Positions 12,527 to 25,913 of a DNA stretch of 64,000 nt are shown here, piece by piece. Each line of letters starts with the position of its first letter. The first letter of the stretch is position 1. The DNA comes from Thermoanaerobaculia bacterium (GTDB taxonomy: Bacteria > Acidobacteriota > Thermoanaerobaculia > Gp7-AA8). Position numbers and translations under genes: made by a program. Under the pieces are notes generated by a model. That model did not search any database and was not told the origin of the DNA. It worked only from the letters and a program-made list of their open reading frames with translations. Location of the stretch: positions 2,523 through 66,522 of the forward strand of contig DATFHJ010000107.1 of assembly GCA_035248585.1 (NCBI GenBank). The letters run 5' to 3'.

Positions 12527-12603
<77 letters not shown>

Positions 12604-13384: not shown

Positions 13385-14112
13385 ACCGCGAGCGCCGCGG
13401 CGAAGACGAGGTTGAACGCCAATCCCAACACTCCCACCTCGGGCGCGAAGATCGAGGTGTCGGCGATGCCGAGCGCGCCGGTCTTCGTGCCGAATCCGTA
13501 GAGCGAATAGACGATCGCGTTCCAGACGCTGTGGCAGAGACTCGAGACGAGGATCGAGCCGGAGATCGAGCGCAGCAGTCCCCAGATCGCGCCCATCACG
13601 AAGGCGTTGACGAGGTAGAGCGGAATCTGCGCGGGATGCGGATTGAAGCCGGTGTCGAAGACGACCGCGGAGATGTGCCACGCCACGAACGCGGCGCTGC
13701 TCCATACAAGCGTGCCGCGCTCCGACAACCCGCCCCGCTTCAGCGCCGCCCACAGCCATCCGCGAAAGAATCCCTCCTCGGTCAACATCACCGCGATCAC
13801 ACCGGCAAGCCCGTTGATCGCGATCGGTTTCCATCGAATCGCGCCCGCGTGCACGGCGCCGAAGGCGATGGCGAGAATCGTGATCGCGCCGATGACCACC
13901 ACCGGATGCAGCAGCGCCAGTACGTAATGATGCGGACGTCCGAGGGTGAGGCTGGCTTCGCGAGGCCTGATGCGCTGCGCGATGCAGAGCGCAAACGCGA
14001 GCGGAAAGAGCGGCAGGGCGCTGAACAGCAGCAGGCCGTTCGCGTCCATCGCGGTGGTGACGGCGATCGCGATCGCCACGCCGGCGATCGCCCACTTCAG
14101 ACTCGTACTCAC
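13354..14112 (-). CDS. CPBP-family (CAAX/Abi-like) intramembrane metalloprotease
   Basis: Polytopic membrane protein carrying the family motifs EEGFFRGWLW, FVAWH and HSVWN. Confidence 0.8.
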   Translation of the reverse strand: MSTSLKWAIAGVAIAIAVTTAMDANGLLLFSALPLFPLAFALCIAQRIRPREASLTLGRPHHYVLALLHPVVVIGAITILAIAFGAVHAGAIRWKPIAINGLAGVIAVMLTEEGFFRGWLWAALKRGGLSERGTLVWSSAAFVAWHISAVVFDTGFNPHPAQIPLYLVNAFVMGAIWGLLRSISGSILVSSLCHSVWNAIVYSLYGFGTKTGALGIADTSIFAPEVGVLGLAFNLVFAAALAVYSNRIRLRE

Positions 14113-14259
14113 TGACGGCTACTACGCCGGTCGAAGGCGTCTGGTTAACGTGACGCTGCTCACGGCCGGACCAGGTCCCCAGCCTTACGTTCCTCACCGC
14201 AGGCCCAAACTGTTGTGCCGTTCACACTCTTCTTTTCTTTGAAGGAGGTTCCTCCTCGT

Positions 14260-16098
14260 ATGCGTCGTTTGCTCTCTCTGCTGGTTCTCCTGTCTCTTCT
14301 GTCGCTTCCCGCGTACGCGAACACGATCACCGTCAACGGCTTCACCGATGCGCTCAGCAATGGCGACGGCCTCTGCACCATCCGTGAAGCGGTTCTCAAC
14401 GCGAACTTCAACAACGGCGCCTGGACGGATTGCGGACCCGGATCGGGCCATGACGTCATCAATCTTCCCGCCGGCACGATCACCTTCTCGATCGCCGGCA
14501 CGCAGGAAGACGCCGGCCTCCTCGCCGATCTCGACGTGTGGGACAGCGTGACCGTCAATGGCAACGCCGCCGGCACGACGATCGACGTCAACGGGAAGGA
14601 GCGCGCGTTCGACTTGAACCCGGCCACGTTCCCGTCTCCCGGAACCGGTGGCCCGATCGCGGTGCTTCTCAACGACCTCTACATCACGAACGGCTTCGTC
14701 TTCGGAGGCGACGGCGGCGGAATGCAGGTCAATGCGAACGCCACCGTCACCGCGACCAACGTCACCATCTCGAACTGCGAGACGAACAACGACGGCGGCG
14801 GTGTCATGAACAACGGCACGCTGACGATGATCAACTGCACGGTCACCGGCAACGTGTGCCCCTGGCTCGGCGGCGGCATCGCCAACAACGGTTCTCTCTC
14901 GTTGAAGAGCTGCACGATCACGAAGAACTCGCAGTACGGCGCCGGCCCGCCGCACGCGCAAGGGATCCGCGCCTCGGGGCCGACGACCATCATCCAGAAC
15001 ACGATCATCGCCGGCAACGGCACCGGGGCTCCCGATTTCGAGCCGGAGTACGAAGGCACGCTCACGTCGCTCGGCCACAACGTCATCGGGCCGAACGGCG
15101 TCCCGCCGCACGTCCCGGCGACGGGCGATCAGGTGGACGTCACCTCCGCGCAGTTGAATGTCGCGCCGCTCGCGAACAACGGCGGGACGGTGCCGACCCA
15201 CGCGCTCAACCCCGGGAGCGCCGCCCACGATCAAGGCAACAGCGACGGCCTGGCCGTCGATGAGCGTGGATCGCTCCGCCCCTGCGACGACCCCGGCATC
15301 GCCAACGCCCCCGGCGGCGACGGCGCCGACGTGGGAGCCTTCGAGGTTCTCGGCACGTGCTCCACGCCGAACGATCCTCCAGTGGCAGTCGCCGACTCGT
15401 ACGACATGGATCAGGATACGACGCTGAACGCCGGCGCACCGGGTGTTCTCGGCAACGACACCGACCCCAACGGCGATTCGCTCACAGCGACGCTCGTCAG
15501 CGACGTTTCGAACGGAACGCTGGTCCTGAACGCTGACGGTTCCTTCACCTACGAGCCCGATCCGGGGTTCGTCGGCGACGACACGTTCACGTACCACGCA
15601 TCCGACGGCACCGACGACTCGAACACCGCGACCGTGACGATCCACGTCGCCGATACGCAGGGACCGGACATCACCCTCTCACTCGCGAACGACCTGCTCT
15701 GGCCGCCGAATCACAACCTGATCGACGTCGGACTCTCGTATGCGACGAGTGACAACGGCGGCGGCACGGTGACGTCGAGCGTTGCCGTCTACAGCGACGA
15801 GGACGATCTGACGCCGGAGACCGGCGATTTCTCACCCGACGCGAAGAACGCGTTGCGTCTGCGCGCTGAACGGAGTGCAACCGGCAACGGCCGCGTCTAC
15901 CTCATCGTCGTCACCGCGGCGGATGCGTCGTCGAACACGAGTCATGCCTGCGCGACCGTGGTCGTGCCGAAGAGCATGTCGGCCGCAGACGTGAGCGCCG
16001 TGAACGCGCAAGCCGCTGCAGCCGCTTCGCAGTGCGGCACGATTCCCGCCGGCTACTTCGTCGTTGGCGATGGTCCGGTCGTGGGGCCGAAGCAATAG
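14260..16098 (+). CDS. Secreted right-handed beta-helix protein with a CSLREA-type N-terminal motif and a cadherin/Ig-like domain
   Basis: GAAGGAGG lies upstream of the ATG at 14260, followed by signal peptide MRRLLSLLVLLSLLSLPAYA. Also present: GDGLCTIREAVLNAN, PbH1-like GGG(V/I)xNNGTLT repeats, and GNDTDPNGDSLTA...DDTFTYHASDG. Confidence 0.75.
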   Translation: MRRLLSLLVLLSLLSLPAYANTITVNGFTDALSNGDGLCTIREAVLNANFNNGAWTDCGPGSGHDVINLPAGTITFSIAGTQEDAGLLADLDVWDSVTVNGNAAGTTIDVNGKERAFDLNPATFPSPGTGGPIAVLLNDLYITNGFVFGGDGGGMQVNANATVTATNVTISNCETNNDGGGVMNNGTLTMINCTVTGNVCPWLGGGIANNGSLSLKSCTITKNSQYGAGPPHAQGIRASGPTTIIQNTIIAGNGTGAPDFEPEYEGTLTSLGHNVIGPNGVPPHVPATGDQVDVTSAQLNVAPLANNGGTVPTHALNPGSAAHDQGNSDGLAVDERGSLRPCDDPGIANAPGGDGADVGAFEVLGTCSTPNDPPVAVADSYDMDQDTTLNAGAPGVLGNDTDPNGDSLTATLVSDVSNGTLVLNADGSFTYEPDPGFVGDDTFTYHASDGTDDSNTATVTIHVADTQGPDITLSLANDLLWPPNHNLIDVGLSYATSDNGGGTVTSSVAVYSDEDDLTPETGDFSPDAKNALRLRAERSATGNGRVYLIVVTAADASSNTSHACATVVVPKSMSAADVSAVNAQAAAAASQCGTIPAGYFVVGDGPVVGPKQ

Positions 16099-16135
16099 CG
16101 TCCAATACCGCATCGGGCGGCCTTTCGGCCGCCCG

Positions 16136-16714
16136 TCACACCAACCGCGGCCCCGCGCACCACGCCGACAGGACGACCCGCTCGCCGCGCGTGACGCGGG
16201 AGACGGCGTGCATGGCGAAGCTGGGGAAGAAGAGGCAGTCGCCGCGATCGATCTTGAGGGTGCGGCGGTCGGCGATGGTGAGCTCGCCGCCGGCCCAGGC
16301 GCGCGCGGGAACGAGCGGGAGGATCGCCGTGATCTTGCTTTGGTCGGTGCTGGTGTAGTCGTAGTCGGTGTGCGGGCGGGTGTAGCCGCCGACGCCGTAC
16401 TTTTGAAGGCGCATCGGCTCGACGATCCCCGAAAGCGCGAAGCCCCAGACGTTGTACCGCGCGAACGCGCGCGCGATTTTCTGAAACGCCCACGCCGAGT
16501 CCTCGGGGCGCAGAAAGCAGTACTGCACGTCGCGTTTGATGCGCAGGCCGCCGCTCTTGTAGAAGCGCCCGTGTTCCTCCGCGAACGCGATCAGCTCGCG
16601 GCACTGATCGGCGGAGAAGAGCGAGCGGCAGACCGTGAACCAGCCCGGCTTCTGAATCGACTGCGGAACCGGGTAGACGATCTCATCGACTTCGAAGGGC
16701 ATGCGCGCTCCCAT
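16136..16714 (-). CDS. 2OG-Fe(II) oxygenase (prolyl-4-hydroxylase-like), last gene of the operon
   Basis: HTDYD...FAMHAVSRVTRGERV fits the HxD...H...R facial triad pattern. The ATG at 16714 overlaps the upstream stop (TGATG); an alternative ATG is at 16702. Confidence 0.7.
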   Translation of the reverse strand: MGARMPFEVDEIVYPVPQSIQKPGWFTVCRSLFSADQCRELIAFAEEHGRFYKSGGLRIKRDVQYCFLRPEDSAWAFQKIARAFARYNVWGFALSGIVEPMRLQKYGVGGYTRPHTDYDYTSTDQSKITAILPLVPARAWAGGELTIADRRTLKIDRGDCLFFPSFAMHAVSRVTRGERVVLSAWCAGPRLV

Positions 16715-17160
16715 CACACCTTGTTGTCGTTCAACCACTGGTCGAGGAAGTTGTAAAAGCGGGGATCGTAGGCGGCGCTGTGGTCGCGCAGCCAGGCCCG
16801 ATGCGTGCCGCCGAAGAGGCGCATCGAGCCGCAAAACCACGTCTTCATCTCCTGCTCCGATCCCAGGAACCAGAGATCATCGAGATAGCCGATGCACAGC
16901 CGGGCGATCAGGTCGTATTTCGGCGCCTCGTCGCCCGTGAATTTGTTCTTGTAGTCCGCGGTGTTCGCCGGATCCATGTACCTGGCGTTGTTGGCGAGCA
17001 TCTGCATCAGCGTGGACCACTCTTTCGTGCAGAACGTCCAGCGCCACTGGCGGATGCTGTTCCGCAACGTGTTGATGCCGACGATCAACGCGCAGAGGGT
17101 CAGGAACGGCGGAACGAAGGTGGCGACGAACCAGATCCAATCGCGCGCGGGTGCAGGCAT
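16714..17160 (-). CDS. Hypothetical single-pass membrane protein (148 aa)
   Basis: The ATG at 17160 lies 2 nt after the upstream stop. It has an N-terminal TM (WIWFVATFVPPFLTLCALIVGI), GC3-rich codons and no recognisable motif. Confidence 0.5.
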   Translation of the reverse strand: MPAPARDWIWFVATFVPPFLTLCALIVGINTLRNSIRQWRWTFCTKEWSTLMQMLANNARYMDPANTADYKNKFTGDEAPKYDLIARLCIGYLDDLWFLGSEQEMKTWFCGSMRLFGGTHRAWLRDHSAAYDPRFYNFLDQWLNDNKV

Positions 17161-17162
17161 GA

Positions 17163-18281
17163 TCAGTTCCTTTCGGCGATGACGGCGCGTTGCTGGACGA
17201 GCCACGACAGCATCGCCGCGGCGCGCGGGCGGGGCATGGCGTGCGACCAGCGGTCGAGGATCGCATGCGCGGGTGTGCGGGCGGCGATCGTGGCGACGAG
17301 CGGCGCGAGCGGCGTGCCGCCGAGGTAGACGACGTCGTCGCCGGCGGCGGTGCGGATGGCCGGCTCGAGCTCGACGAAGTCGCCGCGGATCGCGGGGGCG
17401 ATCACTTGCGCGTGCTCGTTCGTGGAGATAAGCAGGTCATCTGCAATCGCGGCGGGCGTTTCTTCGAACACTTCGTTCGTCCAGCGCGCGTGCTGCGCGG
17501 AGACGCGTTGCACGTGGGAGGTGTAGAAGCGGATCGCGGCGCCGGTGTTTTCGGGGCGGCGGAGGATCGTGTGCACGGCGGTCGAGGCGGCGATGGCGCT
17601 GCCGATCGCCGCTTGCACGCCGGAGGATGTGATCGGATCGATGGCGAAGGCGGCTTCGCCGATCGAGGCGGAGTGCTCGTCGATCGGTGCGTCGCAGACG
17701 TACGGCGTGGCGTCGAAGGCGTGCGGCGGCGACGTTGGGACGCTGTTCGTAAATTGGGATAACGCGCCGGTGTAGACGGCGGTGTAGGTCCCGTCGGGGA
17801 GCGTGGCGCCCCAGAACCAGTCGTCGCCGCGCCGGAGGAAGAGCGGCAACTGGCGTTGCCGCACTCCAAAGCGCGCGTGCCAGGCGATGAGGCGCGGGGC
17901 GGTGAAGCGGCGCGGGCGGCGGGAGAGGTTGGCGCGGCCGGTGGCGTCGATGAAGAACTGATGGACTGCGGCGGCAGAGCCGCCGCTTTGGAAAGCGGCG
18001 GCTCTGCCGCCGCAGTCCAAAAAGAGAACTTCGACGCCGGCATCGCGCGCGGCATCGAGCAGCATCGAATCGAATTGAGCGCGGTCGACGACGAGCGATT
18101 GCGGAGCCTCGAGGCCGAGGTTCGCGAGATGCACGCGCACCCCGGGCGAGAGCGACTCGCCGACGTGCGGGCGCGGGAACGTGCGGCGCTCGACGAGGCG
18201 CACCGAATGTCCCAGCTTCGCGAGGCGGATCGCGGCGGCGCTGCCGGCGGGACCGCCGCCGGCGATGAGGACGTCGATCAC
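17163..18281 (-). CDS. FAD-dependent oxidoreductase/monooxygenase, in the operon position of LodB/GoxB/QhpG
   Basis: The GTG at 18281 overlaps the upstream stop (GTGA). Dinucleotide-binding motif VLIAGGGPAGSAAAIRLAKLGHSVRLVER and GESLSPG are present. The rest of track ORF 17163-19280 is out-of-frame overlap with the rSAM gene. Confidence 0.8.
   Translation of the reverse strand: MIDVLIAGGGPAGSAAAIRLAKLGHSVRLVERRTFPRPHVGESLSPGVRVHLANLGLEAPQSLVVDRAQFDSMLLDAARDAGVEVLFLDCGGRAAAFQSGGSAAAVHQFFIDATGRANLSRRPRRFTAPRLIAWHARFGVRQRQLPLFLRRGDDWFWGATLPDGTYTAVYTGALSQFTNSVPTSPPHAFDATPYVCDAPIDEHSASIGEAAFAIDPITSSGVQAAIGSAIAASTAVHTILRRPENTGAAIRFYTSHVQRVSAQHARWTNEVFEETPAAIADDLLISTNEHAQVIAPAIRGDFVELEPAIRTAAGDDVVYLGGTPLAPLVATIAARTPAHAILDRWSHAMPRPRAAAMLSWLVQQRAVIAERN
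17963..18018. repeat. Double-hairpin palindromic element, family C (GGACT-GCGGCGGCagaGCCGCCGC-TTTGGAAA-GCGGCGGCtctGCCGCCGC-AGTCC), in frame inside the flavoprotein CDS
   Basis: The arms are perfect 27-nt reverse complements. Within the gene it encodes ...DCGGRAAAFQSGGSAAAV... Confidence 0.85.
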
Positions 18282-19495
18282 GCGAGCGCTCCGAGCTCGG
18301 CGTAGGTCTCGAGGCAGTAGTGCAGCCAGCCGCGGATGAAGTCGCACGCGGGGCGTCCGCGGTGGATGACTTCGTGATGGCATCCGCCGCCGCAGAGGTA
18401 GCGCGCCCAGCATGAGCGGCACGGCTCCTGCCGCATGACGTGGCGCTCGTCGAGCCAGCGCGACTGCCGCGCGCGATCCGGGCCCTGCGCGAGATCGCCC
18501 ATCGCCCCGGCCTCGTCGCCGACGAAACGATGGCAGGCGGAGAGCTCGCCGTCCGCGGAAACGCCGAGGTAGCTCGCGCCGGCGCCGCAGGGATAAGGAC
18601 GATGCGTGCCGCGGTCGAGCTCGCGCAACGCGTTGACGAGATTCGCGAACGCATAGCGCTCGCCGCGCCGCGCGCGGCGGCGGAGCTCGTCGCCGCACTC
18701 GATCATCGCGGCGAGCATTCGCTCGAGATCGCGCGCGTGCATTTCGTTGTCGTGCGACGGCGCGGTGAGCATCGGCGAAAAGCCGACGCTGTGAAATCCG
18801 CGCGCGAGCAGCTCGTCGAGCGTTTCCTTCAGCGCGAGATTGCGCGGCGTGACGGTCACGCGCGCGGAGACCTGCATCCGCCGCTGCATCCGCAGCAGCG
18901 GCTCGACGCGCGTCATCAACTCGTCGAAGCTCCCCCGTCCGCTCTTGAACGGCCGCTGCGCGTCGTGCGCGGCGCCGATGCCGTCGATGCTGATCGTGAC
19001 GGCGAAGGCGTGTTTCTCGAAGAACTCCGCATCGTCTTCGCGGAGCAGCGTGCCGTTCGTCGTGATCGAGAACGTTGCGCCTCGCGCCGCGGCGTACTCC
19101 GTTGCGCGCCGCACGACGTCGCGATTGATGAGCGGCTCGCCGCCGAGGAAGGCGATGTTCACTTTCTCGCCGGCAGGCAGCAGATCGATGGCGTCGATCG
19201 CTGTTTGCAACGGCATGTTCTTCGCGGCGCCGCCGAAATCGCCCTGCTGCGCGTAGCAGTACGTGCAGCCGAGGTTGCACTTCTGGGCGACGGCGAGCGA
19301 GATCGCGCGCAGCGGCGGATCGACGAGCGGCGCGTCGTCGACGAACGGCGGCGCATCGAGGCCGAGGGCGGCGAGCGTCGCCGCGTCGGGTGCGGCGACG
19401 AGCGCGGCGAACGAGGCGTCATCGAGCTCGTAGATGCGATTGCCGTTGGGGATGAGAATGTGCCGCTCGCCGAACAGATGGACGTCGGCGCTCAT
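18278..19495 (-). CDS. Radical SAM / SPASM-domain maturase (anSME/QhpD-like)
   Basis: The ATG at 19495 overlaps the upstream stop (ATGA). The rSAM cluster is CNLGCTYC. C-terminal auxiliary-cluster cysteines are CGAGASYLGVSADGELSACHRF and CRSCWARYLCGGGCHH. Confidence 0.85.
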   Translation of the reverse strand: MSADVHLFGERHILIPNGNRIYELDDASFAALVAAPDAATLAALGLDAPPFVDDAPLVDPPLRAISLAVAQKCNLGCTYCYAQQGDFGGAAKNMPLQTAIDAIDLLPAGEKVNIAFLGGEPLINRDVVRRATEYAAARGATFSITTNGTLLREDDAEFFEKHAFAVTISIDGIGAAHDAQRPFKSGRGSFDELMTRVEPLLRMQRRMQVSARVTVTPRNLALKETLDELLARGFHSVGFSPMLTAPSHDNEMHARDLERMLAAMIECGDELRRRARRGERYAFANLVNALRELDRGTHRPYPCGAGASYLGVSADGELSACHRFVGDEAGAMGDLAQGPDRARQSRWLDERHVMRQEPCRSCWARYLCGGGCHHEVIHRGRPACDFIRGWLHYCLETYAELGALA

Positions 19496-20355
19496 TCGCT
19501 GTCGCGCCCCCGGATCTCGAACTGCAGCACGGTTTCCCAGCGCCGGAACATGTCTTCGTACGAGTACCAGCCGGCGCCTGCTTCTTCGATCACGTACTGG
19601 CCGGGATTCTCGCCGCGCACCTGCATCCAGTTCTCGCCCGCGCTCGTGCCGGTCGCGCTGACGTCGACATTGACGAAGTCGGGGCGGCTGGCGGCCCAGT
19701 AGTAGCACGCGCACTCGCGATAGTCGTTCTGCCACGGCGAGCAGAGGCTCTGCGTGAGCTGGCCCGGCGAGATCAGGTCGCGGGCGATGACGGCCGTGCC
19801 GGGCTCGAAGAACGCGCGCACTTCGAGCTGGTACGGAACGATCTCGACGTCGGGCCGCACGGCACGCACCGCGCGCTTCTTCGTGAACTCGCACGTCACG
19901 AACTGCCCCGCTTCGCGCACGACCAGCGCCAGCGCGTTGGCCCATTCGAGCGCCGTTGGCCCGAGCTTCTCTACCTCGCCTTTCGCGCGGCGCGGGCCTT
20001 CGACGATGGTGATGATCTGCTGCTCGCCGCGCTGCAGGCGAATGCGCACGAGTCGATGGAAGAGCAGGTCTTTGTACTCGGGATCGGCGGCGACGACGAG
20101 GTTGTCCGACTCGTGCAACTCGATGCCTTTGAAGATGTTCTTCCAGACGTTGCGGAAGTCGAACTCGAGTCCGGGGAAGCAGTTCGAGATCGCGGTCGTC
20201 GGCAGCGTTCCGGGCGGATTTCCGGCGGCGCGATAGGAGAGCTGCTCCAGCAGCGCGTCCGCGGGAATCGCCTTCGGCGCGAAGTTTCCCTCCATCGCCT
20301 GCACGGCCAGCGGCTTCCCCGCGCGCGCCGTTTGATTGATCGGCTTCGCGCTCAT
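19492..20355 (-). CDS. LodA/GoxA-like oxidase, C-terminal half carrying the putative CTQ Cys/Trp motif
   Basis: CSPWQNDYRECACYYWAASRPDF resembles the CPWQADF...YWWP region of LodA-family quinoproteins. The ATG at 20355 overlaps the upstream stop (ATGA). Confidence 0.6.
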   Translation of the reverse strand: MSAKPINQTARAGKPLAVQAMEGNFAPKAIPADALLEQLSYRAAGNPPGTLPTTAISNCFPGLEFDFRNVWKNIFKGIELHESDNLVVAADPEYKDLLFHRLVRIRLQRGEQQIITIVEGPRRAKGEVEKLGPTALEWANALALVVREAGQFVTCEFTKKRAVRAVRPDVEIVPYQLEVRAFFEPGTAVIARDLISPGQLTQSLCSPWQNDYRECACYYWAASRPDFVNVDVSATGTSAGENWMQVRGENPGQYVIEEAGAGWYSYEDMFRRWETVLQFEIRGRDSE

Positions 20356-21719
20356 TCCTTTTCCTCCTCGGGGGGCGCCGGCGTGCTGAACACGACCTGC
20401 TCACTCGCCTGCCGGTTGCCCGAGCCGCGGATGGCGTTGTACTGCCGGCGCGTGAGCGCGAGGTGCAGTCCATCGCTGCCGCGCATCATCGCCGGCATCT
20501 TGCGGCGGCCTTTGTCGCTGAGGTCCCCGACTTCGTCCCACTCGCGCAGCACTTCGCTGAACCACGGCGCGCTGCCGCTTTGCAGCGCGGCGAAGACGCT
20601 TTGATGCAGCGCGCGCAGCGCGATCGTGTCGACGAGGGCGCGGGCCATGATCGGCTCGATCGCGCGTCCGAGGTAGCTGTCGTGCAGCACCATGCAGTTC
20701 GAAGGCTGGGGCGGATCGTCGGCCGTGACCGGATTCCCGTTCAGTACGACCGTGTTCTGCAGCCTCACGGTTTCGAACGCGCGCCGCAGGATTTCCTCGG
20801 TCCACTCCGGCGACACGTCTTCGTCCGCGACGTGCGGACCGAGGAGCACCTGTTCGAGCTCGTCGGCCACGGTGCGCACCGGAAAACTGTCGGGCGCGTA
20901 GTCGGGAGGTCCGGCGCCGATGCGCGCGAACGCAGACAAGTTCAACTTCGCGATGCGCACTTCGACGAGACCGTCGCATTCGTCGTCGAGATAGCCGCGG
21001 CTCGTGCTCCGCTCGTCGTCGAGGCGCGCGTAGATGTAGCCGGGATTCGTGATCGTCTCCGTGGGATTCATGTTGTCGTCGCTCCAGCCGTCCCACGCGC
21101 CGCGGCGGCTGTCGTAGATCACATCGGCGACGTCTTTGTCGCGCGTGAGGCGGCCGGTGGCGCCGTAGACCACGCCCTTGCCGGGCGTGAAGCGCGCGCG
21201 GATTTCCGGGAACTCGCCGGTCGGCTGGAGGAACTGCACGTCGCCGAACGGCAGCGTTTTCTTCGGCAGGAAATGCTCGCAGCGGCCGAGCAGCTTGTGC
21301 GGCGCGTGACCGGTGAACCAGCCGGTGTCGGCGTCGATGCGGTCGAGCGGATCGCGCGTGCGGCGAAACGCTTTCTGATTGCCGACCTGCACGCGCCACT
21401 CGACATCGCCGGCACTCACGTGCGCCATCGTCAGCGGCACGAGCGTGCCGTCGACGTCGGCCCAGACTTCGAGGAACGGCGCGACCGGCTTCACGCGCTT
21501 GCGTTTGTCCTGGAAGCGCACGGGATCGGGCGGCGTGTAGACGCGCGTGATGACGCCGCGCTTGCGGTCGACGTCGAACGTCGGCGCGCCGTGAAGCTCG
21601 CGAAAGCCGAGCGGATCGACTTCCGAGACGCGGACGTCGTAGTTTTCGAGCGGATCGGGCGACGAGCCGAGGCGGGCGATGGCGAGCGGCGGGAGGATGC
21701 GCAGCGCGCGGATCGTCAT
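20352..21719 (-). CDS. LodA/GoxA-like oxidase, N-terminal half
   Basis: The N-terminus MTIRALRILPPLAIARLGSSPDP resembles the HP(A/S)IG(I/V)ARLGNS opening of LodA-family proteins. The ATG at 21719 overlaps the upstream stop (ATGA). Confidence 0.6.
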   Translation of the reverse strand: MTIRALRILPPLAIARLGSSPDPLENYDVRVSEVDPLGFRELHGAPTFDVDRKRGVITRVYTPPDPVRFQDKRKRVKPVAPFLEVWADVDGTLVPLTMAHVSAGDVEWRVQVGNQKAFRRTRDPLDRIDADTGWFTGHAPHKLLGRCEHFLPKKTLPFGDVQFLQPTGEFPEIRARFTPGKGVVYGATGRLTRDKDVADVIYDSRRGAWDGWSDDNMNPTETITNPGYIYARLDDERSTSRGYLDDECDGLVEVRIAKLNLSAFARIGAGPPDYAPDSFPVRTVADELEQVLLGPHVADEDVSPEWTEEILRRAFETVRLQNTVVLNGNPVTADDPPQPSNCMVLHDSYLGRAIEPIMARALVDTIALRALHQSVFAALQSGSAPWFSEVLREWDEVGDLSDKGRRKMPAMMRGSDGLHLALTRRQYNAIRGSGNRQASEQVVFSTPAPPEEEKE

Positions 21720-23143
21720 TGGATCGCCTCCAGCCTTTCCTGCGCGTTGAGCAACCGCTCGACGATCTGCATCGCCAGCTCATCGTGATCCTTCAGCGCG
21801 CGGAGATAGGTGCGATGCGTTTCGCCGGCGACGTCGAGCTGGCCGATCAGTTTCGCCGCGCCGTTGATGAGATCGCGGTGCACGCGCCATTTGTCGGAGT
21901 CCCAGTCCGGCAGCGCGAGGGTGTACGGCGCCTGGAACGGCGGGCCGGCGCGCGCGTCGCCGCCGTCTTTGTCGAGCGGCAGCGAGACGAGGATCGAGGC
22001 GATCGAGCGGAGGTTGTACATCTCGCCGAACGTCCAGGCGATGAGATTGCCGCGCGCGGTCGGGCGATCGACGGGATCGCCTTCTTCGACGTGGAAGGCG
22101 TGCTTGAGCGTGAACAGGAGCTTGCGGTAGCGAAGGTTGAAGAGATTCGCCCACAACTGCGAGCGCGCGTTCGTGATGCGCGCGCAGCCGAGCGGTCCAT
22201 ACGTCGGAATCTCGTCCTCCGGCGCCGGCTCGGCCGTGGGATTCGTCGGGATGTTGCGCGACGGCGGATTCTCCTCGGGGAATGCCTCGTAGATGCGCAG
22301 GAAGCGGCTGAAGTGGGAGAGCTCGTCGTTGGCGCCGACCGGCGCTTCGCCCTGTTGGGCGATGTTGATGAGCGCTTTGACGGTCGAGGCACGGTCGATG
22401 GCCGGCAGCACGCGCACGTCCGGCGTTTTGGGCGGGAACTCGCGCCCGATGTTGCCGCGCTCGCCGGCGCCGTAGCCGCGCGCCCATTCATCCCACGAGG
22501 CCTGGTACGGCGCGGTGTCGGTGCGGAAGTCGGCGGCGGTGAGCACCTCTTCGTCTTCGAAGACGGCGATGAGCTCGCGATACAACACGCCGACCGGCAG
22601 GATCTCGCGGCCATCGTCCGCGCGCCGCGCGCGCTCTTTGATCTCCGCCGCCGCCGGGGTTTCCAGCCAGTCCTCCGGCGCCTCGGCGATCACATATTTC
22701 GCGAGCGATGCTTTCGTCGCCGGCTCGAGGACGAAGTGGAACGGATAGAACTCGCTGCGGAACGGATAGTCCTCGCGCTCGAGGTGCAGTGGACCGCCGA
22801 TGAGACGGAGGATGTTCTGCACGGTGATGAGATGTCCCATCTCCTCTTTGGCGATGCCGAGGATGACTTCGCGCCATTGCCGCGCTTTCTCGTGCTGGTC
22901 GCCGGCGACGGTGGTGCCGCCGAGGGAGTACGCGGCATAGAGGTACTGCACCATCAACGCATGCTCGACCTCGGAGGCGACATGCAGGAGGAAGACGGCG
23001 TAGTCGTGCCACGAAAGCTCGGGCGGCGGCTCGCGCCGCTCCGGCGCCGCGGCGGCGAGGCCCGCTTCTTCGAGCACCGCAGCCTCGCGCCGCGGGCGCG
23101 CCGCCGCCGTCGATACGAGGTACCTCCGCAGACTCGGTCGCAT
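21716..23143 (-). CDS. Ferritin-like four-helix-bundle protein (Pfam Ferritin-like / VioB-RebD-type domain), first gene of the operon
   Basis: HVASEVEHALMVQYLYAAYSL and IAKEEMGHLITVQNIL are the paired E..H helices typical of this family. Confidence 0.65.
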   Translation of the reverse strand: MRPSLRRYLVSTAAARPRREAAVLEEAGLAAAAPERREPPPELSWHDYAVFLLHVASEVEHALMVQYLYAAYSLGGTTVAGDQHEKARQWREVILGIAKEEMGHLITVQNILRLIGGPLHLEREDYPFRSEFYPFHFVLEPATKASLAKYVIAEAPEDWLETPAAAEIKERARRADDGREILPVGVLYRELIAVFEDEEVLTAADFRTDTAPYQASWDEWARGYGAGERGNIGREFPPKTPDVRVLPAIDRASTVKALINIAQQGEAPVGANDELSHFSRFLRIYEAFPEENPPSRNIPTNPTAEPAPEDEIPTYGPLGCARITNARSQLWANLFNLRYRKLLFTLKHAFHVEEGDPVDRPTARGNLIAWTFGEMYNLRSIASILVSLPLDKDGGDARAGPPFQAPYTLALPDWDSDKWRVHRDLINGAAKLIGQLDVAGETHRTYLRALKDHDELAMQIVERLLNAQERLEAIQ

Positions 23144-23188: not shown

Positions 23189-23217
23189 GAAAAGCGGTGG
23201 CTATGCCACCGCAGTCC
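23189..23217. repeat. Family C palindromic element, half copy with compensatory stem change
   Basis: GAAAAGCGGTGGCTATGCCACCGCAGTCC compares with the right half of 17963-18018. The C-to-T change and its partner G-to-A change keep the hairpin intact. Confidence 0.6.
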
Positions 23218-23223
23218 AAAGCG

Positions 23224-24228
23224 TCACTTGAAGTTCGTGAACGGCTCGAACGTCAATGCGAACGATCCGAAGCGCTGATTTTCGATCGCGCCCAAGGGTA
23301 CGTCGAATTCGGCCGAGCGCTCGATCACGGTGTACGTAAGGCGCCAGCGTTTGTAGCGTGCGGAGAAACCGGCGCGGAGGTCGTGAACGAGCTCCTTCGG
23401 ATCGGGCGCGCCGTCGAGCGTGGCGTTGTAGGGGACGTAGCGCGCGTACGCGCCGCCGAAGACGTAGACCTCATAGCGGTGCACCGGATTCGGGCTCGCG
23501 GCGTTGTTGATGACGCCGATGGGGAAGCCGGTGACGTGATAGCCGAGGCGCAGCGTGGCGCCGGCATTCGCGTTCGTTTGCGGGGATCCGAGCATGGCTC
23601 CGAATTCGGGAACGAGGTCGACGGTGTCGGGAACGAAGACGAAACGCCGCAATTGAAGGTAGCGCAGCGACAGCACGGGCTCGTTGTCCAACTGGTTGTG
23701 CCAGCCGCTCGGATCTTTGTCGCTGAAGCCGAGGGTGTTGTGCACGAACTTCTGCACGCGCTGCGCGCCGGCGCCGGGGCCCAGAATGCCGGCGTCGACT
23801 TCGAAGACGTGCATTTGGCGAAAGTCCGGATCGGTGATGCTCTCGGCGACGCCGGCATACAGCACACCCGCCCACGGACGATCGAACGGCTGCGGCGCGG
23901 CGATGGTGATGTTCTCGGGTGTGTAGAAGTTCTGGCCGAAGACCGCGCTGACGGAGGCGATGGGCGTCACGCCGTCGATGCCGCCGAGGTGGTTCCACGT
24001 CCAGTCGCGCACGGGCGTGACGAAACGCCAGTTCACGATGGTGTTGTCGGTGAACTGTGCGCTGATGCGGACGCCGTTCGTGTAGAAGCGATCGGACTTG
24101 CGGCCGATGCCGAAGTTGTCGTTTTCCCAGTAGACCGTCCACGAGTTGAATTTCCACGCGGCGGAGGCGGGAACGGCGGCGAGGAGGAGAAGCAATCCGA
24201 GCGTCTTGCGCATGACGAACATCCTCAT
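23224..24228 (-). CDS. LpxR-family (DUF2219) outer-membrane lipid A deacylase-like protein
   Basis: Signal peptide MRKTLGLLLLLAAVPASAA, then WENDNFGIGRKSDRFYTNGVRIS, and a beta-barrel-like C-terminus ending in F-x-F. The ATG at 24228 overlaps the upstream stop; an alternative ATG is at 24213. Confidence 0.7.
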   Translation of the reverse strand: MRMFVMRKTLGLLLLLAAVPASAAWKFNSWTVYWENDNFGIGRKSDRFYTNGVRISAQFTDNTIVNWRFVTPVRDWTWNHLGGIDGVTPIASVSAVFGQNFYTPENITIAAPQPFDRPWAGVLYAGVAESITDPDFRQMHVFEVDAGILGPGAGAQRVQKFVHNTLGFSDKDPSGWHNQLDNEPVLSLRYLQLRRFVFVPDTVDLVPEFGAMLGSPQTNANAGATLRLGYHVTGFPIGVINNAASPNPVHRYEVYVFGGAYARYVPYNATLDGAPDPKELVHDLRAGFSARYKRWRLTYTVIERSAEFDVPLGAIENQRFGSFALTFEPFTNFK

Positions 24229-25913
24229 GATTGAAAGTCGACCCTGGAGAAGCCCGTGAGCGACGTGTTCTTGCAGCTGGCGGTGCGGCCCATGCCGAAC
24301 TGCGCGAACGCGGCGCGGATCTCGCGCTCGATGTCTGCCGCGCGCGGCAGGGCGAGGCGGGTGTTGGAATCGAGAAGGGCGTTGCGCGCGTCGATGAACG
24401 TCGGATTCACCTTCAGGCGCTTCATCGAGTCGACGACGAGACGCCACGCGGTCTCCTGTCCCGCCGCCTTGTTGACGTCGTCATCGGCGAACATCGCACG
24501 CAGCGATTCGTGCATGCGGATCAGCGCGGCCGCGAAGATGCTCCCGGCGCCATGCTGATCGTTGAACGGCGGCGTGCCGAGCCGCGTCACGCTGGAGGAG
24601 AAGTTGTCGTACGGATGCGGGCGCGCGCCGCCCGGCTTCTTCGACGCGAACTCGGCGAACGTGAAGCGGCGCGCGAGGCTCGCTGTGCCGCGGTAGAAGT
24701 TGAGGATCGTGACGGCGAAGTAATCGCTCCAGGCCTCGCCGAGGGCGAGACTCTGCGGCTTGCTGAGCGCGTCTTTCTGCAGGCGGCCGGACACGAGCCG
24801 CTGGGAAACGCCGTGGGCGAACTCGTGAATGACCACGCCGGCATCGAGCGCGGTCGGATTGCCGATCTGATTGTCCTGCTTCCAGAGCCCGAGCGTGAGC
24901 TCGGCGGGCGCGCCGTCGTTCTGCGCGCGCATGTTCGCGCCGCTCGCCGTCGACACGCTGACCACGAGCCGGTCGCCCGCTGTTCCTTCGCCGTCGAAGT
25001 TCTTCTCCTGGAAATTGCCATCGCGCTCGCTGAATCCGATCAACGAGAAAAAGTCGTGCATCGAATTGCAGACGAAGAAGGCATTGACGGCCTGCTCCTC
25101 CGCGGAGCCGGCGTTCGGCGTGAAGCGGCGCAGCGGCCCTTCCATCACCGACGTCACTTCGCACTTCTTCGTCCCCAGTTTCATCAGGACGTTGTTGCCG
25201 TCCGGCTGATCCTTCGTGACCCAGTCGCGAAAGTCCGCCGCCGGACGAAGGCCCGGCGGATAGTGAGCGAGCGGCCGCGGGAACACGAAGTCGCGCGCGG
25301 GCGGCTCGCCTTTGCCGAACGCGAACACGCTCGCGATGCACGCGCTCGCGGAGACCGCGGCGCAATCGAGGATCGCGGCGGTTTTCCCGTGCGCCGCGAC
25401 GGCAATCGTGAAGTCGACGACGTCCTTCACGTGCATCGACACCAGCCACGCCAGCACCGGCCGCGGCTCGCAGAGCACCACGAGGTGCGCCATCACCGGC
25501 TCGTCGAACGGACCGGGCGTGAGCACGGTCGGCCGGTTCGCCATCGGAAATGACGAGACGACACGGGGCCGGAATCCCCGATCCCAGAACAGCGTCGCGT
25601 GCGGCGTATGGCACCCGCCATTGCCGCCGGCGCGCACGTGCCGGAAGGCCGCGCGCACCGCCTTCTCGACGCCGATATCCGGGATGACCTCGAGAGTGCC
25701 AACATCGACGAGCGGGTCGCCGATCGACGCCGGCCGCCCGTTGGCCTTGACCTCGACGACGACCGAGCGCGGAAAGAGCGCAATGCCGCGATGGTGCTGC
25801 TGCCCGTGAACGCTGCAGCCTCCGCCGAGCAGATGCTGGACGTGCGGGTCAAACAGCACGTCCGCATCTGCGAGGTGGTTCTCCGCTTTTCGAAGAGCCT
25901 GCTGCGCGTCCAT
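24225..25913 (-). CDS. M36 (fungalysin-like) zinc metallopeptidase; no obvious signal peptide
   Basis: HExxH appears in VVIHEFAHGVSQRL and the third-ligand motif in LGEAWSDYF. Confidence 0.8.
   Translation of the reverse strand: MDAQQALRKAENHLADADVLFDPHVQHLLGGGCSVHGQQHHRGIALFPRSVVVEVKANGRPASIGDPLVDVGTLEVIPDIGVEKAVRAAFRHVRAGGNGGCHTPHATLFWDRGFRPRVVSSFPMANRPTVLTPGPFDEPVMAHLVVLCEPRPVLAWLVSMHVKDVVDFTIAVAAHGKTAAILDCAAVSASACIASVFAFGKGEPPARDFVFPRPLAHYPPGLRPAADFRDWVTKDQPDGNNVLMKLGTKKCEVTSVMEGPLRRFTPNAGSAEEQAVNAFFVCNSMHDFFSLIGFSERDGNFQEKNFDGEGTAGDRLVVSVSTASGANMRAQNDGAPAELTLGLWKQDNQIGNPTALDAGVVIHEFAHGVSQRLVSGRLQKDALSKPQSLALGEAWSDYFAVTILNFYRGTASLARRFTFAEFASKKPGGARPHPYDNFSSSVTRLGTPPFNDQHGAGSIFAAALIRMHESLRAMFADDDVNKAAGQETAWRLVVDSMKRLKVNPTFIDARNALLDSNTRLALPRAADIEREIRAAFAQFGMGRTASCKNTSLTGFSRVDFQS

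What the first reader, a model, noticed from the sequence alone, without database searches (positions are those of the whole stretch)
16136..23143. Seven-gene coupled operon: LodA/GoxA-like quinoprotein with both a LodB-like flavoprotein and a radical SAM/SPASM maturase, plus ferritin-like and 2OG-oxygenase partners
Seven minus-strand ORFs run from 23143 to 16136 almost without gaps. Junctions are ATGA at 21719/21716, 20355/20352 and 19495/19492, GTGA at 18281/18278, a 2-nt gap at 17163/17160, and TGATG at 16714. This indicates a single translationally coupled unit. Gene order: (1) ferritin-like four-helix protein (HVASEVEHALMVQYLYAAYSL; VioB/RebD-type Ferritin-like domain); (2) a 455-aa protein opening with ILPPLAIARLGSSPDP, like the HPxIGxARLGNS start of LodA-family oxidases; (3) a 287-aa protein with CSPWQNDYRECACYYWAASRPDF, like the CTQ-bearing region of LodA/GoxA; (4) an rSAM/SPASM enzyme (CNLGCTYC plus two C-terminal Cys clusters); (5) an FAD enzyme in the LodB/GoxB/QhpG position; (6) a single-TM protein; (7) a 2OG-Fe(II) oxygenase. 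From established knowledge, LodA/GoxA maturation needs only the downstream flavoprotein. Quinohemoprotein amine dehydrogenase instead uses a flavoprotein (QhpG) plus an rSAM thioether-forming enzyme (QhpD) on its small CTQ subunit. This operon merges both logics on a LodA-like scaffold and adds two more redox proteins. I know of no described system with this composition. My inference is a new class of cross-linked quinoprotein oxidase, possibly coupled to downstream chemistry by the VioB/RebD-like protein.
Basis: partly seen in the sequence, partly recalled or inferred. Interest (0 to 1): 0.85.

Follow-up and report, generated by a model that had tools for sequence, protein, structure and literature searches.

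The report
LodA-like quinoprotein with QHNDH-type maturases
This operon encodes an uncharacterised but widespread enzyme: a distant relative of the LodA/GoxA quinone-cofactor oxidases whose active-site loop copies the cross-linked motif of a different quinoprotein, is flanked by that protein's two maturation enzymes, and always comes with an iron-type four-helix partner.

Summary
Seven minus-strand genes (23143-16136) are joined by ATGA/GTGA/TGATG overlaps and bracketed by two stable hairpins.

The interpretation largely holds, with corrections.
- g2+g3 are a split, distant LodA/GoxA homologue. A profile hits GoxA at E 3.7e-5. A model of a natural g2-g3 fusion hits only GoxA/LodA (E 7e-11, but TM about 0.3).
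- g3 carries an invariant motif, C205-x5-D211-x3-C215-x-C217-x2-W220-x5-D226. D211 and C215 align with LodA D512 and C516 (the CTQ Cys). All six residues align with C27/D33/C37/C41/W43/D49 of the QHNDH gamma subunit.
- g4 scores best against QhpD.
- g5 orthologues pass NCBIfam's QhpG cut-off and score about 2.5 times higher than against LodB/GoxB.
- g1 (PF12902) keeps an E/ExxH/E/ExxH dimetal ligand set. It occurs naturally fused to g2, or to g2-g3.

Only g1-g5 recur: 63 of 68 loci across many phyla, with relatives in 419 species genomes. g6 and g7 are additions specific to one Thermoanaerobaculia clade. The window's g5 is about 100 aa shorter than the family norm.

No description of this cassette was found in the literature searched. 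The chemistry is inferred and untested.

The parts
21716..23143 (-). g1: ferritin-like (PF12902) protein, 475 aa. Putative dimetal-carboxylate subunit of the enzyme.
   Evidence: Pfam PF12902 at 1.6e-27. Weak match to VioB region 591-741. Family-invariant E60, E101-x-x-H104, E154 and H277, with E274 in most members. Naturally fused to g2, or to g2-g3, in other organisms. No relative among PDB sequences.
20352..21719 (-). g2: N-terminal half of a split LodA/GoxA-like protein, 455 aa.
   Evidence: LodA_N at 17.4 bits, below the cut-off. The family profile aligns colinearly to GoxA residues 6-21, 172-186 and 320-380: ILPPLAIARLG, WRVxVxNxK, GYLDDxCDG...GPPDYAPD. The fusion model hits only GoxA/LodA. 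A 100% identical protein is annotated 'hypothetical' in a Thermoanaerobaculia MAG.
19492..20355 (-). g3: C-terminal half of the split LodA-like protein, 287 aa. Putative cofactor-bearing subunit.
   Evidence: LodA_C at 22.8 bits, and hit by 37 of 37 family members. Among 18,950 NCBIfam models, only LodA (29 of 37) and QH_gamma (27 of 37) are hit recurrently. More than 1345 homologues, all unnamed.
19678..19743 (-). Codons for g3 residues 205-226, CSPWQNDYRECACYYWAASRPD: the predicted thioether and tryptophylquinone loop.
   Evidence: D211 and C215 align with LodA D512 and C516 and with GoxA D678 and C682. C205/D211/C215/C217/W220/D226 align with QHNDH gamma C27/D33/C37/C41(shifted by one)/W43/D49. 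The pattern C.PW..D...C.C..W.....D is present in 160 of 160 retrieved sequences that have the core, and in all 84 loci. AlphaFold confidence is below 50 here.
18278..19495 (-). g4: radical SAM/SPASM enzyme, 405 aa. Predicted Cys-to-Asp/Glu thioether-forming maturase.
   Evidence: CNLGCTYC plus a CX2CX5CX3C SPASM pattern. Best NCBIfam hits are QhpD TIGR03906 (292 bits, cut-off 453) and then PapB ranthipeptide maturase (256 bits). Orthologues score 361 and 309 bits against QhpD.
17163..18281 (-). g5: QhpG-like FAD monooxygenase, 372 aa (shortened). Predicted peptidyl-Trp dihydroxylase.
   Evidence: Best NCBIfam hit is QhpG at 176.6 bits (cut-off 240), against GoxB 65.6 and LodB 59. Full-length orthologues score 313 and 280 bits and pass the cut-off. 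PDB hits are halogenases and 7ctq, the peptidyl tryptophan dihydroxylase. It has three internal deletions relative to orthologues of about 470 aa.
16714..17160 (-). g6: 148-aa protein with one N-terminal hydrophobic helix. Clade-specific accessory of unknown role.
   Evidence: No Pfam or NCBIfam family. The only homologue among the 84 loci is in L008.
16136..16714 (-). g7: 2OG-Fe(II) oxygenase, 192 aa. Clade-specific accessory.
   Evidence: PF13640 at 3.6e-12. Found only in L004/L005, L006 and L008, which are close Acidobacteriota relatives.
23194..23212 (-). Stem-loop followed by TTTT, between the LpxR gene stop (23224) and the g1 start. Likely terminator of the upstream gene, so g1 starts its own transcription unit.
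   Evidence: Sequence. Fold energy -27.1 kcal/mol, z -5.35.
16114..16135 (-). GC-rich stem-loop immediately after the g7 stop codon. Likely the end of the operon.
   Evidence: Sequence. Fold energy -23.6 kcal/mol, z -4.0. The next gene is convergent (14215-16098, + strand).

Best explanation
g1-g5 encode a previously uncharacterised class of tryptophylquinone-type quinoprotein together with its two dedicated maturases.

Shown by the data:
- g2 and g3 are the two halves of a distant LodA/GoxA homologue. They form a single chain in many relatives.
- g3 carries an invariant loop, C205-x5-D211-x3-C215-x-C217-x2-W220-x5-D226.
- g4 scores closest to QhpD and g5 scores closest to QhpG.
- g1-g5 are syntenic across phyla.
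- g1 has a dimetal-type ligand set and occurs fused to g2 or to g2-g3.

Inferred mechanism:
1. In the cytoplasm, the radical SAM/SPASM enzyme g4 makes Cys-to-Asp thioether bridges in the g3 loop. The most likely pairs are C205-D211 and C217-D226, as QhpD does for C27-D33 and C41-D49 of QhpC.
2. The QhpG-like flavoprotein g5 then dihydroxylates a Trp in the constrained loop. W220, the counterpart of QhpC W43, is the best candidate.
3. Oxidation and attack by C215 (the counterpart of LodA C516 and QhpC C37) give a cysteine tryptophylquinone. D211 serves as the conserved active-site Asp.
4. The mature g2/g3 protein oxidises a primary amine or amino acid, as LodA, GoxA and QHNDH do.
5. g1 is a permanent subunit. 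It either takes the electrons from the reduced cofactor to O2, or handles the peroxide or imine product.

g6 and g7 are additions specific to this Thermoanaerobaculia clade and are not part of the conserved system.
For: Homology to LodA/GoxA:
- Profile vs PDB gives GoxA E 3.7e-5 and LodA 8e-4, in four or five colinear blocks.
- LodA_C is hit by 37 of 37 family members.
- The model of fusion P0143 (pTM 0.86) hits only GoxA/LodA: 50 of 50 hits, E down to 7e-11.

Active-site alignment: g3 D211 and C215 align with LodA D512 and C516 and with GoxA D678 and C682.

QhpC-like pattern:
- All six residues line up with 1jmx_G.
- QH_gamma is one of only two NCBIfam models hit recurrently, by 27 of 37 members.
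- The pattern is present in 160 of 160 sequences and in 84 of 84 loci.

Maturases:
- g4 scores best against QhpD and second best against PapB. Both make Cys-Asp/Glu thioethers.
- g5 orthologues score 313 and 280 bits, above the QhpG cut-off of 240, against 108-130 bits for LodB/GoxB.
- PDB 7ctq is among the hits for g5.

Synteny: g1-g2-g3-g4-g5 appear in the same order in 63 of 68 loci from Acidobacteriota, Myxococcota, Actinomycetota, Proteobacteria, Verrucomicrobiota, Planctomycetota, Bacteroidota and Chloroflexota.

Fusions: g2-g3 fusions exist. A g1-g2 fusion is followed by g3 and the rSAM gene. A g2-g3-g1 fusion is followed by the rSAM and FAD genes.

g1 ligands.

QHNDH biogenesis logic: PMC7876137.
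Against: - No experiment exists. Neither the cross-links nor the quinone has been observed.
- Single-sequence hits of g2 and g3 to LodA_N, LodA_C and QH_gamma are below the curated cut-offs.
- Foldseek TM-scores are only 0.25-0.31, with rmsd about 10 A.
- g3 modelled alone finds no structural match.
- g4 is below the QhpD equivalog cut-off (292-361 bits vs 453).
- The window's g5 (176.6 bits, 372 aa) lacks about 100 residues present in orthologues and may be impaired.
- Three Trp residues (W220, W243, W273) are invariant. I could not determine which one aligns with LodA W581 or GoxA's CTQ Trp.
- g3 has no QhpC-type leader peptide, and no counterpart of the third QhpC bridge (C7-E16) was found.
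- The role of g1 is unsupported by any solved relative.
Confidence: 0.7

Rival explanations
1. Peptide-derived small-molecule pathway, like PQQ or mycofactocin. g3 (or the g2-g3 protein) would be only a precursor or scaffold. After rSAM cross-linking and flavin-dependent hydroxylation, a small cross-linked quinone or peptide would be excised and act as a free cofactor or natural product. g1 would perform a VioB/RebD-like oxidative step.
For: The rSAM/SPASM enzyme also scores well against RiPP maturases: PapB 256 bits, nif11-type 228, SCIFF 209. g1 shares PF12902 and a weak match with VioB, a biosynthetic enzyme. The modified loop is predicted to be disordered.
Against: No protease or exporter is conserved in the cassette. 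g3 has a confidently folded, conserved domain and conserved residues far from the loop. g2-g3 is homologous over its whole length to enzymes that keep their cofactor. Fusions to g1 make polypeptides of 1100-1200 aa, which is atypical for a sacrificial precursor.
Confidence: 0.08
2. Ordinary LodA/GoxA-type amino-acid oxidase. The flavoprotein alone makes CTQ from C215 and a distant Trp (W243 or W273), as LodB and GoxB do. The rSAM enzyme only adds stabilising thioether staples, or acts on another substrate. g1 is a catalase-like peroxide scavenger.
For: The LodA/GoxA Cys-Trp spacing is variable: 65 residues in LodA (PMC4417212), and about 15 in GoxA from my own recollection. W243 and W273 are invariant. 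Some LodA-like proteins are fused to a catalase domain, and fungal lodA-like genes lie next to PF12902 genes (PMC4417212). Manganese catalases are ferritin-like (own knowledge).
Against: The flavoprotein is QhpG-type, scoring about 2.5 times higher than against LodB/GoxB. QhpG acts on an unmodified Trp within an rSAM-cross-linked loop (PMC7876137). W220 occupies the exact QhpC W43 position relative to C215 and D226. The rSAM gene sits between g3 and g5 in almost every locus.
Confidence: 0.15
3. The modifications are structural only, or the cofactor is something other than CTQ. Examples would be a different Cys/Tyr/Trp cross-link using the invariant Y218/Y219, or a halogenated or mono-hydroxylated Trp. 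In that case catalysis resides in the g1 dimetal site, and g2/g3 act as a substrate-binding scaffold.
For: Y218, Y219 and W208 are also invariant. g5 belongs to the halogenase-like flavoprotein clade. A sister subfamily combines ferritin-like and g2-like domains with molybdopterin-type domains in a chain that lacks the g3 motif (P0290, P0302).
Against: The Asp-x3-Cys active-site pair shared with all three CTQ enzymes is invariant. The QhpG equivalog cut-off is passed by orthologues. The g1-g2 fusion P0296 is still followed by a separate g3-like gene and the rSAM gene.
Confidence: 0.07

Closest known systems
[quoted passage not shown]
   Same: The N-terminal ILPPLAIARLG-type start, the DDxCDG...GPPDYAPD block and the PGxLTxx..PWQxDxxxC active-site block are colinear. 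The CTQ Cys and the neighbouring Asp are conserved. The fused relatives are about 720-750 aa long. Foldseek finds only these structures. A flavoprotein gene lies downstream. The association with PF12902 genes was already noted for fungal lodA-like genes (PMC4417212).
   Different: Here the protein is split into two genes. Similarity is sub-threshold for single sequences and TM is about 0.3. The loop contains two extra invariant Cys, an Asp and a Trp that LodA and GoxA lack. The flavoprotein is QhpG-type rather than LodB/GoxB-type. A radical SAM/SPASM gene is always inserted between them. The ferritin-like gene is obligatory and sometimes fused.
Quinohemoprotein amine dehydrogenase (QHNDH, qhpABCDEFG)
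   Same: The g3 loop reproduces the QhpC pattern C27/D33/C37/C41/W43/D49. g4 scores best against QhpD. g5 orthologues pass the QhpG cut-off. The predicted order of events follows the QHNDH order: rSAM thioethers first, then flavin-dependent Trp dihydroxylation (PMC7876137).
   Different: No dihaem alpha subunit, no beta-propeller subunit, no QhpE protease and no QhpF exporter appear in any cassette inspected. The modified segment is part of a 287-aa (or about 750-aa) LodA-like protein, not an approximately 80-residue leader-bearing peptide. No counterpart of the C7-E16 bridge was found. No signal peptides are evident, so the enzyme is probably cytoplasmic. A ferritin-like protein stands where the haem subunit would be.
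PapB-type ranthipeptide maturases (radical SAM/SPASM, Cys-to-Asp/Glu thioethers)
   Same: This is the second-best family for g4 (256-270 bits). The same thioether chemistry is predicted.
   Different: g4 is below the cut-off (340). Its predicted substrate is a large folded protein, not a short RiPP precursor.
VioB / StaD / RebD (iminophenyl-pyruvate dimer synthases)
   Same: They share the PF12902 ferritin-like domain (VioB region 591-741 matches g1 at E 9.5e-11). From my own knowledge, they work together with an amino-acid oxidase.
   Different: The score is far below the equivalog cut-off (40 bits vs 1250). g1 is only 475 aa. No similarity of g2 to VioB was detected. The partner oxidase here is a quinoprotein, not an FAD enzyme.

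Membership tests
LodA/GoxA family | Pfam LodA_N (PF17990) and LodA_C (PF18417) at or above the gathering score | tested here: not met
   The window's g2 scores 17.4 against a cut-off of 26.3, and g3 scores 22.8 against 25. However, LodA_C is hit at E<=0.01 by 37 of 37 family members, and some relatives carry precomputed PF17990 or PF18417 hits.
LodA/GoxA family | Conserved active-site block with the Asp and the CTQ Cys (PWQxDxxxC) | tested here: met
   g3 D211 and C215 align with LodA D512 and C516 and with GoxA D678 and C682. Both residues are invariant in the family.
LodA/GoxA family | A Trp aligning with the CTQ Trp (LodA W581) | tested here: inconclusive
   The HMM alignments stop just after the Cys. 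W220, W243 and W273 are all invariant.
LodA/GoxA family | Same overall fold as 3WEU and 6BYW | tested here: inconclusive
   The fusion model hits only GoxA/LodA, with probability 1.0 and E 7e-11 over 530-630 columns. TM is only 0.25-0.31 and rmsd about 10 A. This supports homology but not a close fold match.
LodA/GoxA family | Adjacent LodB/GoxB-type flavoprotein as the sole maturase | tested here: not met
   g5 and its orthologues score 59-130 bits against LodB/GoxB (cut-off 400), but 177-313 bits against QhpG. An rSAM gene is interposed.
QHNDH (qhp) system | QhpG flavin monooxygenase (NF049967, cut-off 240) | tested here: inconclusive
   The window's g5 scores 176.6 bits, below the cut-off. 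Full-length orthologues score 313 (L001) and 280 (L002), above the cut-off, with end-to-end alignment.
QHNDH (qhp) system | QhpD radical SAM maturase (TIGR03906, cut-off 453) | tested here: not met
   QhpD is the best-scoring family, but the scores of 292, 361 and 309 bits are all below the cut-off.
QHNDH (qhp) system | Small gamma subunit QhpC (NF037958, cut-off 50) with leader peptide, four Cys, and Cys-Asp/Glu bridges around CTQ | tested here: not met
   The score is 15 bits, E 0.018. Six of the key residues align, and 27 of 37 members hit the model weakly. However, the host protein is 287 aa, has no leader and has no C7/E16 counterpart.
QHNDH (qhp) system | Dihaem cytochrome c alpha subunit, beta-propeller beta subunit, QhpE protease and QhpF exporter in the operon | tested here: not met
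   None is present among the seven window genes or among the Pfam-annotated neighbours in L001-L004 and L085-L087.
Ferritin-like dimetal-carboxylate proteins | Four-helix bundle with E / ExxH / E / ExxH metal ligands | tested here: inconclusive
   PF12902 is hit at 1.6e-27. E60, E101xxH104, E154 and H277 are invariant, and E274 is present in most members. No structure or metal analysis is available. No PDB relative was found by sequence.
VioB/StaD/RebD | TIGR04492 equivalog (cut-off 1250), protein of about 1000 aa | tested here: not met
   The score is 40 bits, and only the ferritin-like region matches.

The most novel reading that the evidence does not exclude
This would be a fourth, structurally distinct class of tryptophylquinone enzyme and the evolutionary link between QHNDH and LodA/GoxA. 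In this reading, a LodA-fold protein has its CTQ built on a QhpC-type, thioether-stapled loop by QhpD- and QhpG-like enzymes. The quinone would be wired to a ferritin-like dimetal centre instead of haems, giving a 'quino-diiron' amine oxidase or dehydrogenase that reduces O2 at the metal site. The QhpC peptide and the LodA active-site loop would then share common ancestry.
Probability: 0.3. Interest if true: 0.9.

Novelty: new variant of a known kind. Interest (0 to 1): 0.8.

Why it matters
A 2025 review (PMC11951088) lists CTQ in only three enzymes: QHNDH, LodA and GoxA. It describes two seemingly unrelated biogenesis routes: rSAM plus QhpG acting on a small peptide subunit, and LodB/GoxB acting on a large protein.

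This cassette combines the LodA scaffold with the QHNDH route. It is common: relatives occur in 419 of 185,579 species genomes, and the family forms about 1500 clusters at 50% identity, from soil Acidobacteriota and myxobacteria to Streptomyces, Burkholderiales and Verrucomicrobiota.

If the prediction holds, it would provide:
- a new, testable system for how radical SAM enzymes modify a large folded protein rather than a leader-bearing peptide;
- an evolutionary bridge between the two CTQ lineages;
- a new type of redox partner for a quinone cofactor, a ferritin-like dimetal domain;
- a pool of uncharacterised amine or amino-acid oxidases with possible biosensor and antimicrobial uses.

It also exposes an annotation pitfall. 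The flavoproteins of this cassette pass NCBIfam's QhpG equivalog model even though no qhp operon is present.

Tried and rejected
- Single-sequence phmmer of g1 and g2 against PDB sequences found nothing. A g1 family profile against the PDB also found nothing.
- g3 modelled alone gave pLDDT 66 with the motif region disordered, and no significant Foldseek match. I therefore switched to a natural g2-g3 fusion.
- I tried to retrieve LodA-family sequences with the 45-aa LodA fragment shown, to run profile-profile alignments and locate the CTQ Trp. The Trp assignment therefore remains open.
- A paper search on the Pfam ids and domain names returned only irrelevant hits. A search for PF12902 gave only the 2015 LodA survey.
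- The sigma-70 promoter scan found nothing, and the terminator scan missed the two bracketing hairpins. I found those by eye and confirmed them by folding.
- I considered and rejected a Tat signal in g1's conserved N-terminus (MRSxLRRHL), because no hydrophobic h-region follows it.
- I considered that g2/g3 might be an assembly frameshift. I rejected this because the split with an ATGA overlap is the majority state across loci, and an independent MAG encodes a 100% identical 455-aa g2.
- I considered the flanking genes (M36 peptidase, LpxR, PD40, Rce1-like, aspartyl protease, Big_9/cadherin protein) as possible system members. I rejected them because they are not conserved outside the closest relative.
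- Model coordinates are not exposed, so Cys-Trp distances could not be measured.

Full report
**1. Observation**

ORF listing and translation confirm seven consecutive minus-strand genes at the stated coordinates:
- g1: 21716-23143
- g2: 20352-21719
- g3: 19492-20355
- g4: 18278-19495
- g5: 17163-18281 (GTG start)
- g6: 16714-17160
- g7: 16136-16714

The junction sequences are exactly those described: ATGA three times, GTGA, a 2-nt gap, and TGATG.

Two stem-loops bracket the block:
- One lies between the upstream LpxR gene and g1. It folds at -27.1 kcal/mol (z -5.35) and is followed by TTTT.
- One directly follows the g7 stop. It folds at -23.6 kcal/mol (z -4.0).

The next gene downstream is convergent. 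This fits one seven-gene transcription unit. The consensus promoter scan was uninformative. A 100% identical g2 protein is on record from a Thermoanaerobaculia (Acidobacteriota) MAG, annotated as hypothetical.

**2. What each gene is**

Results from Pfam and NCBIfam:
- g1 is PF12902 Ferritin-like (1.6e-27). It has a weak match to the ferritin-like region of VioB.
- g4 is a radical SAM/SPASM enzyme. Its best family is QhpD (292 bits, cut-off 453), followed by the PapB ranthipeptide maturase (256 bits). Both make Cys-to-Asp/Glu thioethers.
- g5 is an FAD monooxygenase. Its best family is QhpG (176.6 bits, cut-off 240), far ahead of GoxB (65.6) and LodB (59).
- g7 is a 2OG-Fe(II) oxygenase.
- g6 has no family.
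- g2 and g3 give only sub-threshold LodA_N (17.4 bits) and LodA_C (22.8 bits) hits. g3 also weakly hits the QHNDH gamma-subunit model (E 0.018).

**3. Are g2 and g3 really LodA-like?**

Yes, but distantly.
- The g3 family is large (more than 1345 homologues, all unnamed), and so is the g2 family (more than 1843).
- About one locus in five encodes g2 and g3 as a single protein of 717-754 aa. This is the size of LodA and GoxA.
- A profile of fused and split members has GoxA (E 3.7e-5) and LodA (8e-4) as its best PDB sequence hits. The matches fall in colinear blocks:
  - ILPPLAIARLG with GoxA 6-21
  - WRVxVxNxK with GoxA 172-186
  - GYLDDxCDG...GPPDYAPD with GoxA 320-380
  - PGxLTxxxxxPWQxDxxxC with GoxA 662-682
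- Pfam LodA_C is hit by all 37 aligned g3 homologues.
- An AlphaFold model of the natural fusion P0143 (65% identical to g2) has pTM 0.86. All 50 significant Foldseek matches in the PDB are GoxA or LodA chains (E down to 7e-11, probability 1.0). TM-scores are only 0.25-0.31.
- g3 modelled alone has a confident central domain but a disordered motif region, and finds no structural match.
- The split point falls in a low-confidence linker of the fusion model (residues 437-464).

**4. The cofactor loop**

The alignment of 37 g3 homologues shows these invariant residues: C205, W208, D211, E214, C215, C217, Y218, Y219, W220 and D226. C59, C155, W243 and W273 are also invariant.

Alignments to the known CTQ proteins:
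- HMM alignment to LodA puts D211 on D512 and C215 on C516, the CTQ cysteine (CTQ residues C516/W581 per PMC4417212).
- In GoxA the counterparts are D678 and C682.
- Alignment to the Pseudomonas putida QHNDH gamma subunit (1jmx_G) puts C205/D211/C215/W220/D226 on C27/D33/C37/W43/D49. C217 lies one position from C41. In QHNDH these are the C27-D33 and C41-D49 thioether pairs and the C37-W43 CTQ (PMC11951088; PMC7876137).

Each alignment is weak alone. However, of 18,950 NCBIfam models the only two hit recurrently by family members are LodA (29 of 37) and QH_gamma (27 of 37), the two CTQ-bearing lineages.

The full pattern C.PW..D...C.C..W.....D is present in 160 of 160 retrieved sequences that have the LodA-like core, and in all 84 loci. 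This includes very distant fused variants. LodA and GoxA lack the extra Cys, Trp and Asp.

**5. The maturases**

Full-length orthologues of g5 score 313 bits (Pyxidicoccus, L001) and 280 bits (Solirubrobacterales, L002) against the QhpG equivalog. These are above its cut-off of 240 and aligned end to end. The same proteins score 108-130 bits against LodB/GoxB. Their rSAM partners score 361 and 309 bits against QhpD. That is the best family but below its cut-off of 453.

The window's own g5 is atypical. It is 372 aa, against about 465-490 aa elsewhere, and has three internal deletions. At least the first deletion (in the N-terminal 81 residues) is shared with its 94%-identical sister genome, where g5 has a similar overall length (about 375 aa). 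Intermediate lengths occur in the next relatives. It keeps the GxGxxG and GEAA..DP FAD motifs, but its competence is uncertain.

**6. Conservation of the neighbourhood**

A scan of one genome per species found relatives of g3 in 419 genomes. These come from Acidobacteriota, Myxococcota, Actinomycetota, Alpha-, Beta- and Gammaproteobacteria, Verrucomicrobiota, Planctomycetota, Bacteroidota, Chloroflexota and Gemmatimonadota.

I searched the 84 fetched loci with the seven window proteins. g1-g2-g3-g4-g5 appear in that order and on that strand in nearly all of them: 63 of the 68 loci with enough flanking DNA. g7 occurs only in L004/L005, L006 and L008, and g6 only in L008. All of these are close Acidobacteriota relatives. 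The conserved system therefore has five genes.

An exhaustive profile search counts 1495 clusters at 50% identity with E<=1e-3.

**7. The ferritin-like protein is part of the enzyme**

Natural fusions exist in both orders:
- Ferritin-like plus g2-like proteins of about 1000 aa (P0268, P0272, P0296, P0289).
- g2-like plus g3-like (with the intact motif) plus ferritin-like proteins of 1100-1200 aa (P0324, P0339, P0355, P0383).

The gene context is kept in both. P0296 is followed by a g3-like gene and the rSAM gene. P0339 is followed by the rSAM gene and a halogenase-like FAD gene.

The g1 family keeps E60, E101-x-x-H104, E154 and (E274)-x-x-H277. This is the ligand pattern of dimetal-carboxylate four-helix proteins, by my own reading of the pattern. 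No solved relative is detectable by sequence.

The 2015 LodA survey already noted PF12902 genes beside fungal lodA-like genes, and catalase fusions in another LodA group (PMC4417212). A ferritin-like partner for LodA-type proteins therefore has a precedent, although its role is unknown.

**8. Most likely mechanism (inference)**

By analogy with QHNDH biogenesis (PMC7876137):
1. g4 installs Cys-Asp thioethers in the g3 loop. The best guess is C205-D211 and C217-D226.
2. g5 dihydroxylates W220 in the constrained loop.
3. C215 adds to the oxidised indole to give CTQ, beside D211.
4. The mature g2/g3 protein oxidises an amine or amino acid.
5. g1 is a permanent subunit. It either passes electrons to O2 or deals with the peroxide or imine product.

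No signal peptide, protease or exporter is conserved, so the enzyme is probably cytoplasmic.

I put 0.7 on the overall statement and about 0.5 on the specific residue pairs.

Rivals:
- A LodA-style CTQ on a distant Trp made by the flavoprotein alone: 0.15.
- A released peptide-derived cofactor or natural product: 0.08.
- A non-CTQ modification with catalysis at the metal site: 0.07.

**9. Comparison with what is known, and novelty**

The system works like a hybrid. It has the LodA/GoxA scaffold and active-site Asp/Cys, but the QHNDH loop pattern and QHNDH-type maturases.

It fails membership tests for both families:
- LodA-type: it has no LodB-type maturase, and its domain scores are sub-threshold.
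- QHNDH-type: it has no haem or propeller subunits, no leader-bearing small subunit, no QhpE/F, and its QhpD score is below the cut-off.

A 2025 review lists CTQ only in QHNDH, LodA and GoxA. Full-text searches for combinations of LodA, QhpD, QhpG, radical SAM, ferritin-like and CTQ found no description of this cassette. NCBIfam release 20 has no model for g1-g4.

I rate it a new variant of a known kind (CTQ-type quinoproteins). It is well supported computationally and untested experimentally.

**10. Verdict**

The core has five genes. g6 and g7 are clade-specific. The flavoprotein is specifically QhpG-type. g1 is an integral partner. The window's flavoprotein is truncated.
- Interest: 0.8.

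Noticed in passing
window 17163-18281 (g5): The window's flavoprotein is 372 aa, against about 465-490 aa in most orthologues. It has three internal deletions: about 32 aa after LGLEA, about 33 aa after QFTNS, and about 28 aa near the C-terminal third. The 94%-identical sister genome has a similarly short g5 (about 375 aa) and no gap across the first deletion; the next relatives are 392-425 aa. Whether the enzyme is still active is unknown.
   Followed up: partly
P0290 (2062 aa), P0302 (1651 aa): Very long relatives carry an N-terminal molybdopterin-oxidoreductase-like region (CQYCAVGCGYNAF...), then a g2-like domain and a conserved C-terminal extension of about 115 aa (…WI(A/S)SL). The g3 CTQ-type motif is absent from the same chain. 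The ferritin-like/g2 fusions P0268, P0296 and P0289 share the same C-terminal extension.
   Followed up: no
L086 2355-6339 (upstream of the triple fusion P0339): In this distant variant, the g2-g3-ferritin fusion is preceded by a second ferritin-like gene (732 aa) and a PF06537 DHOR di-haem oxidoreductase/peroxidase-like gene. This recalls the haem partners of other tryptophylquinone systems.
   Followed up: no
L015 (contig_24463 of MAG MFD09212.bin.1.4, the genome closest to the window): The same MAG that holds the 94%-identical cassette (L005) has a second copy of g1 plus a fused g2-g3. No rSAM or FAD gene lies within 10 kb downstream. This suggests maturation in trans or an unmodified paralogue. 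L036, L058 and L064 also lack one or both maturase genes nearby.
   Followed up: no
L001 12234-13673, L002 12218-13633: Flavoproteins of this cassette pass NCBIfam's QhpG equivalog cut-off (313 and 280 bits vs 240). They would be named 'QhpG' by automatic annotation although no qhp operon is present. This is an annotation pitfall.
   Followed up: yes
window 23100-23143 (g1 N-terminus) and orthologues: g1 orthologues share a conserved N-terminal peptide (consensus MRSxLRRHLG..L) ahead of the ferritin-like domain. It superficially resembles a twin-arginine motif but lacks a hydrophobic region. It might be a docking peptide.
   Followed up: no
window 14215-16098 (+): A 627-aa Big_9/cadherin-like/beta-helix protein gene sits between g7 and the Rce1-like gene (13354-14112). 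In the 94%-identical sister contig (L004), no gene is called between the 2OG oxygenase gene and the Rce1-like gene, which starts about 230 nt downstream. This looks like a recent insertion or deletion difference.
   Followed up: no
window 23224-25913 (-): Directly upstream on the same strand are an LpxR-family outer-membrane lipid A deacylase gene and an M36 fungalysin-type metallopeptidase gene. They are conserved with the cassette only in the closest relative (L004).
   Followed up: partly
window 12527-12600 (+): A single tRNA gene (Rfam RF00005, 67 bits) is the only Rfam match in the window.
   Followed up: no
g3 residues 200-230 (window 19666-19758) and P0143 residues 664-691: AlphaFold gives its lowest confidence (below 50) to the most conserved segment of the protein, both in isolation and in the fusion model. 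This would be expected for a loop whose shape is set by post-translational cross-links, as in QhpC.
   Followed up: partly
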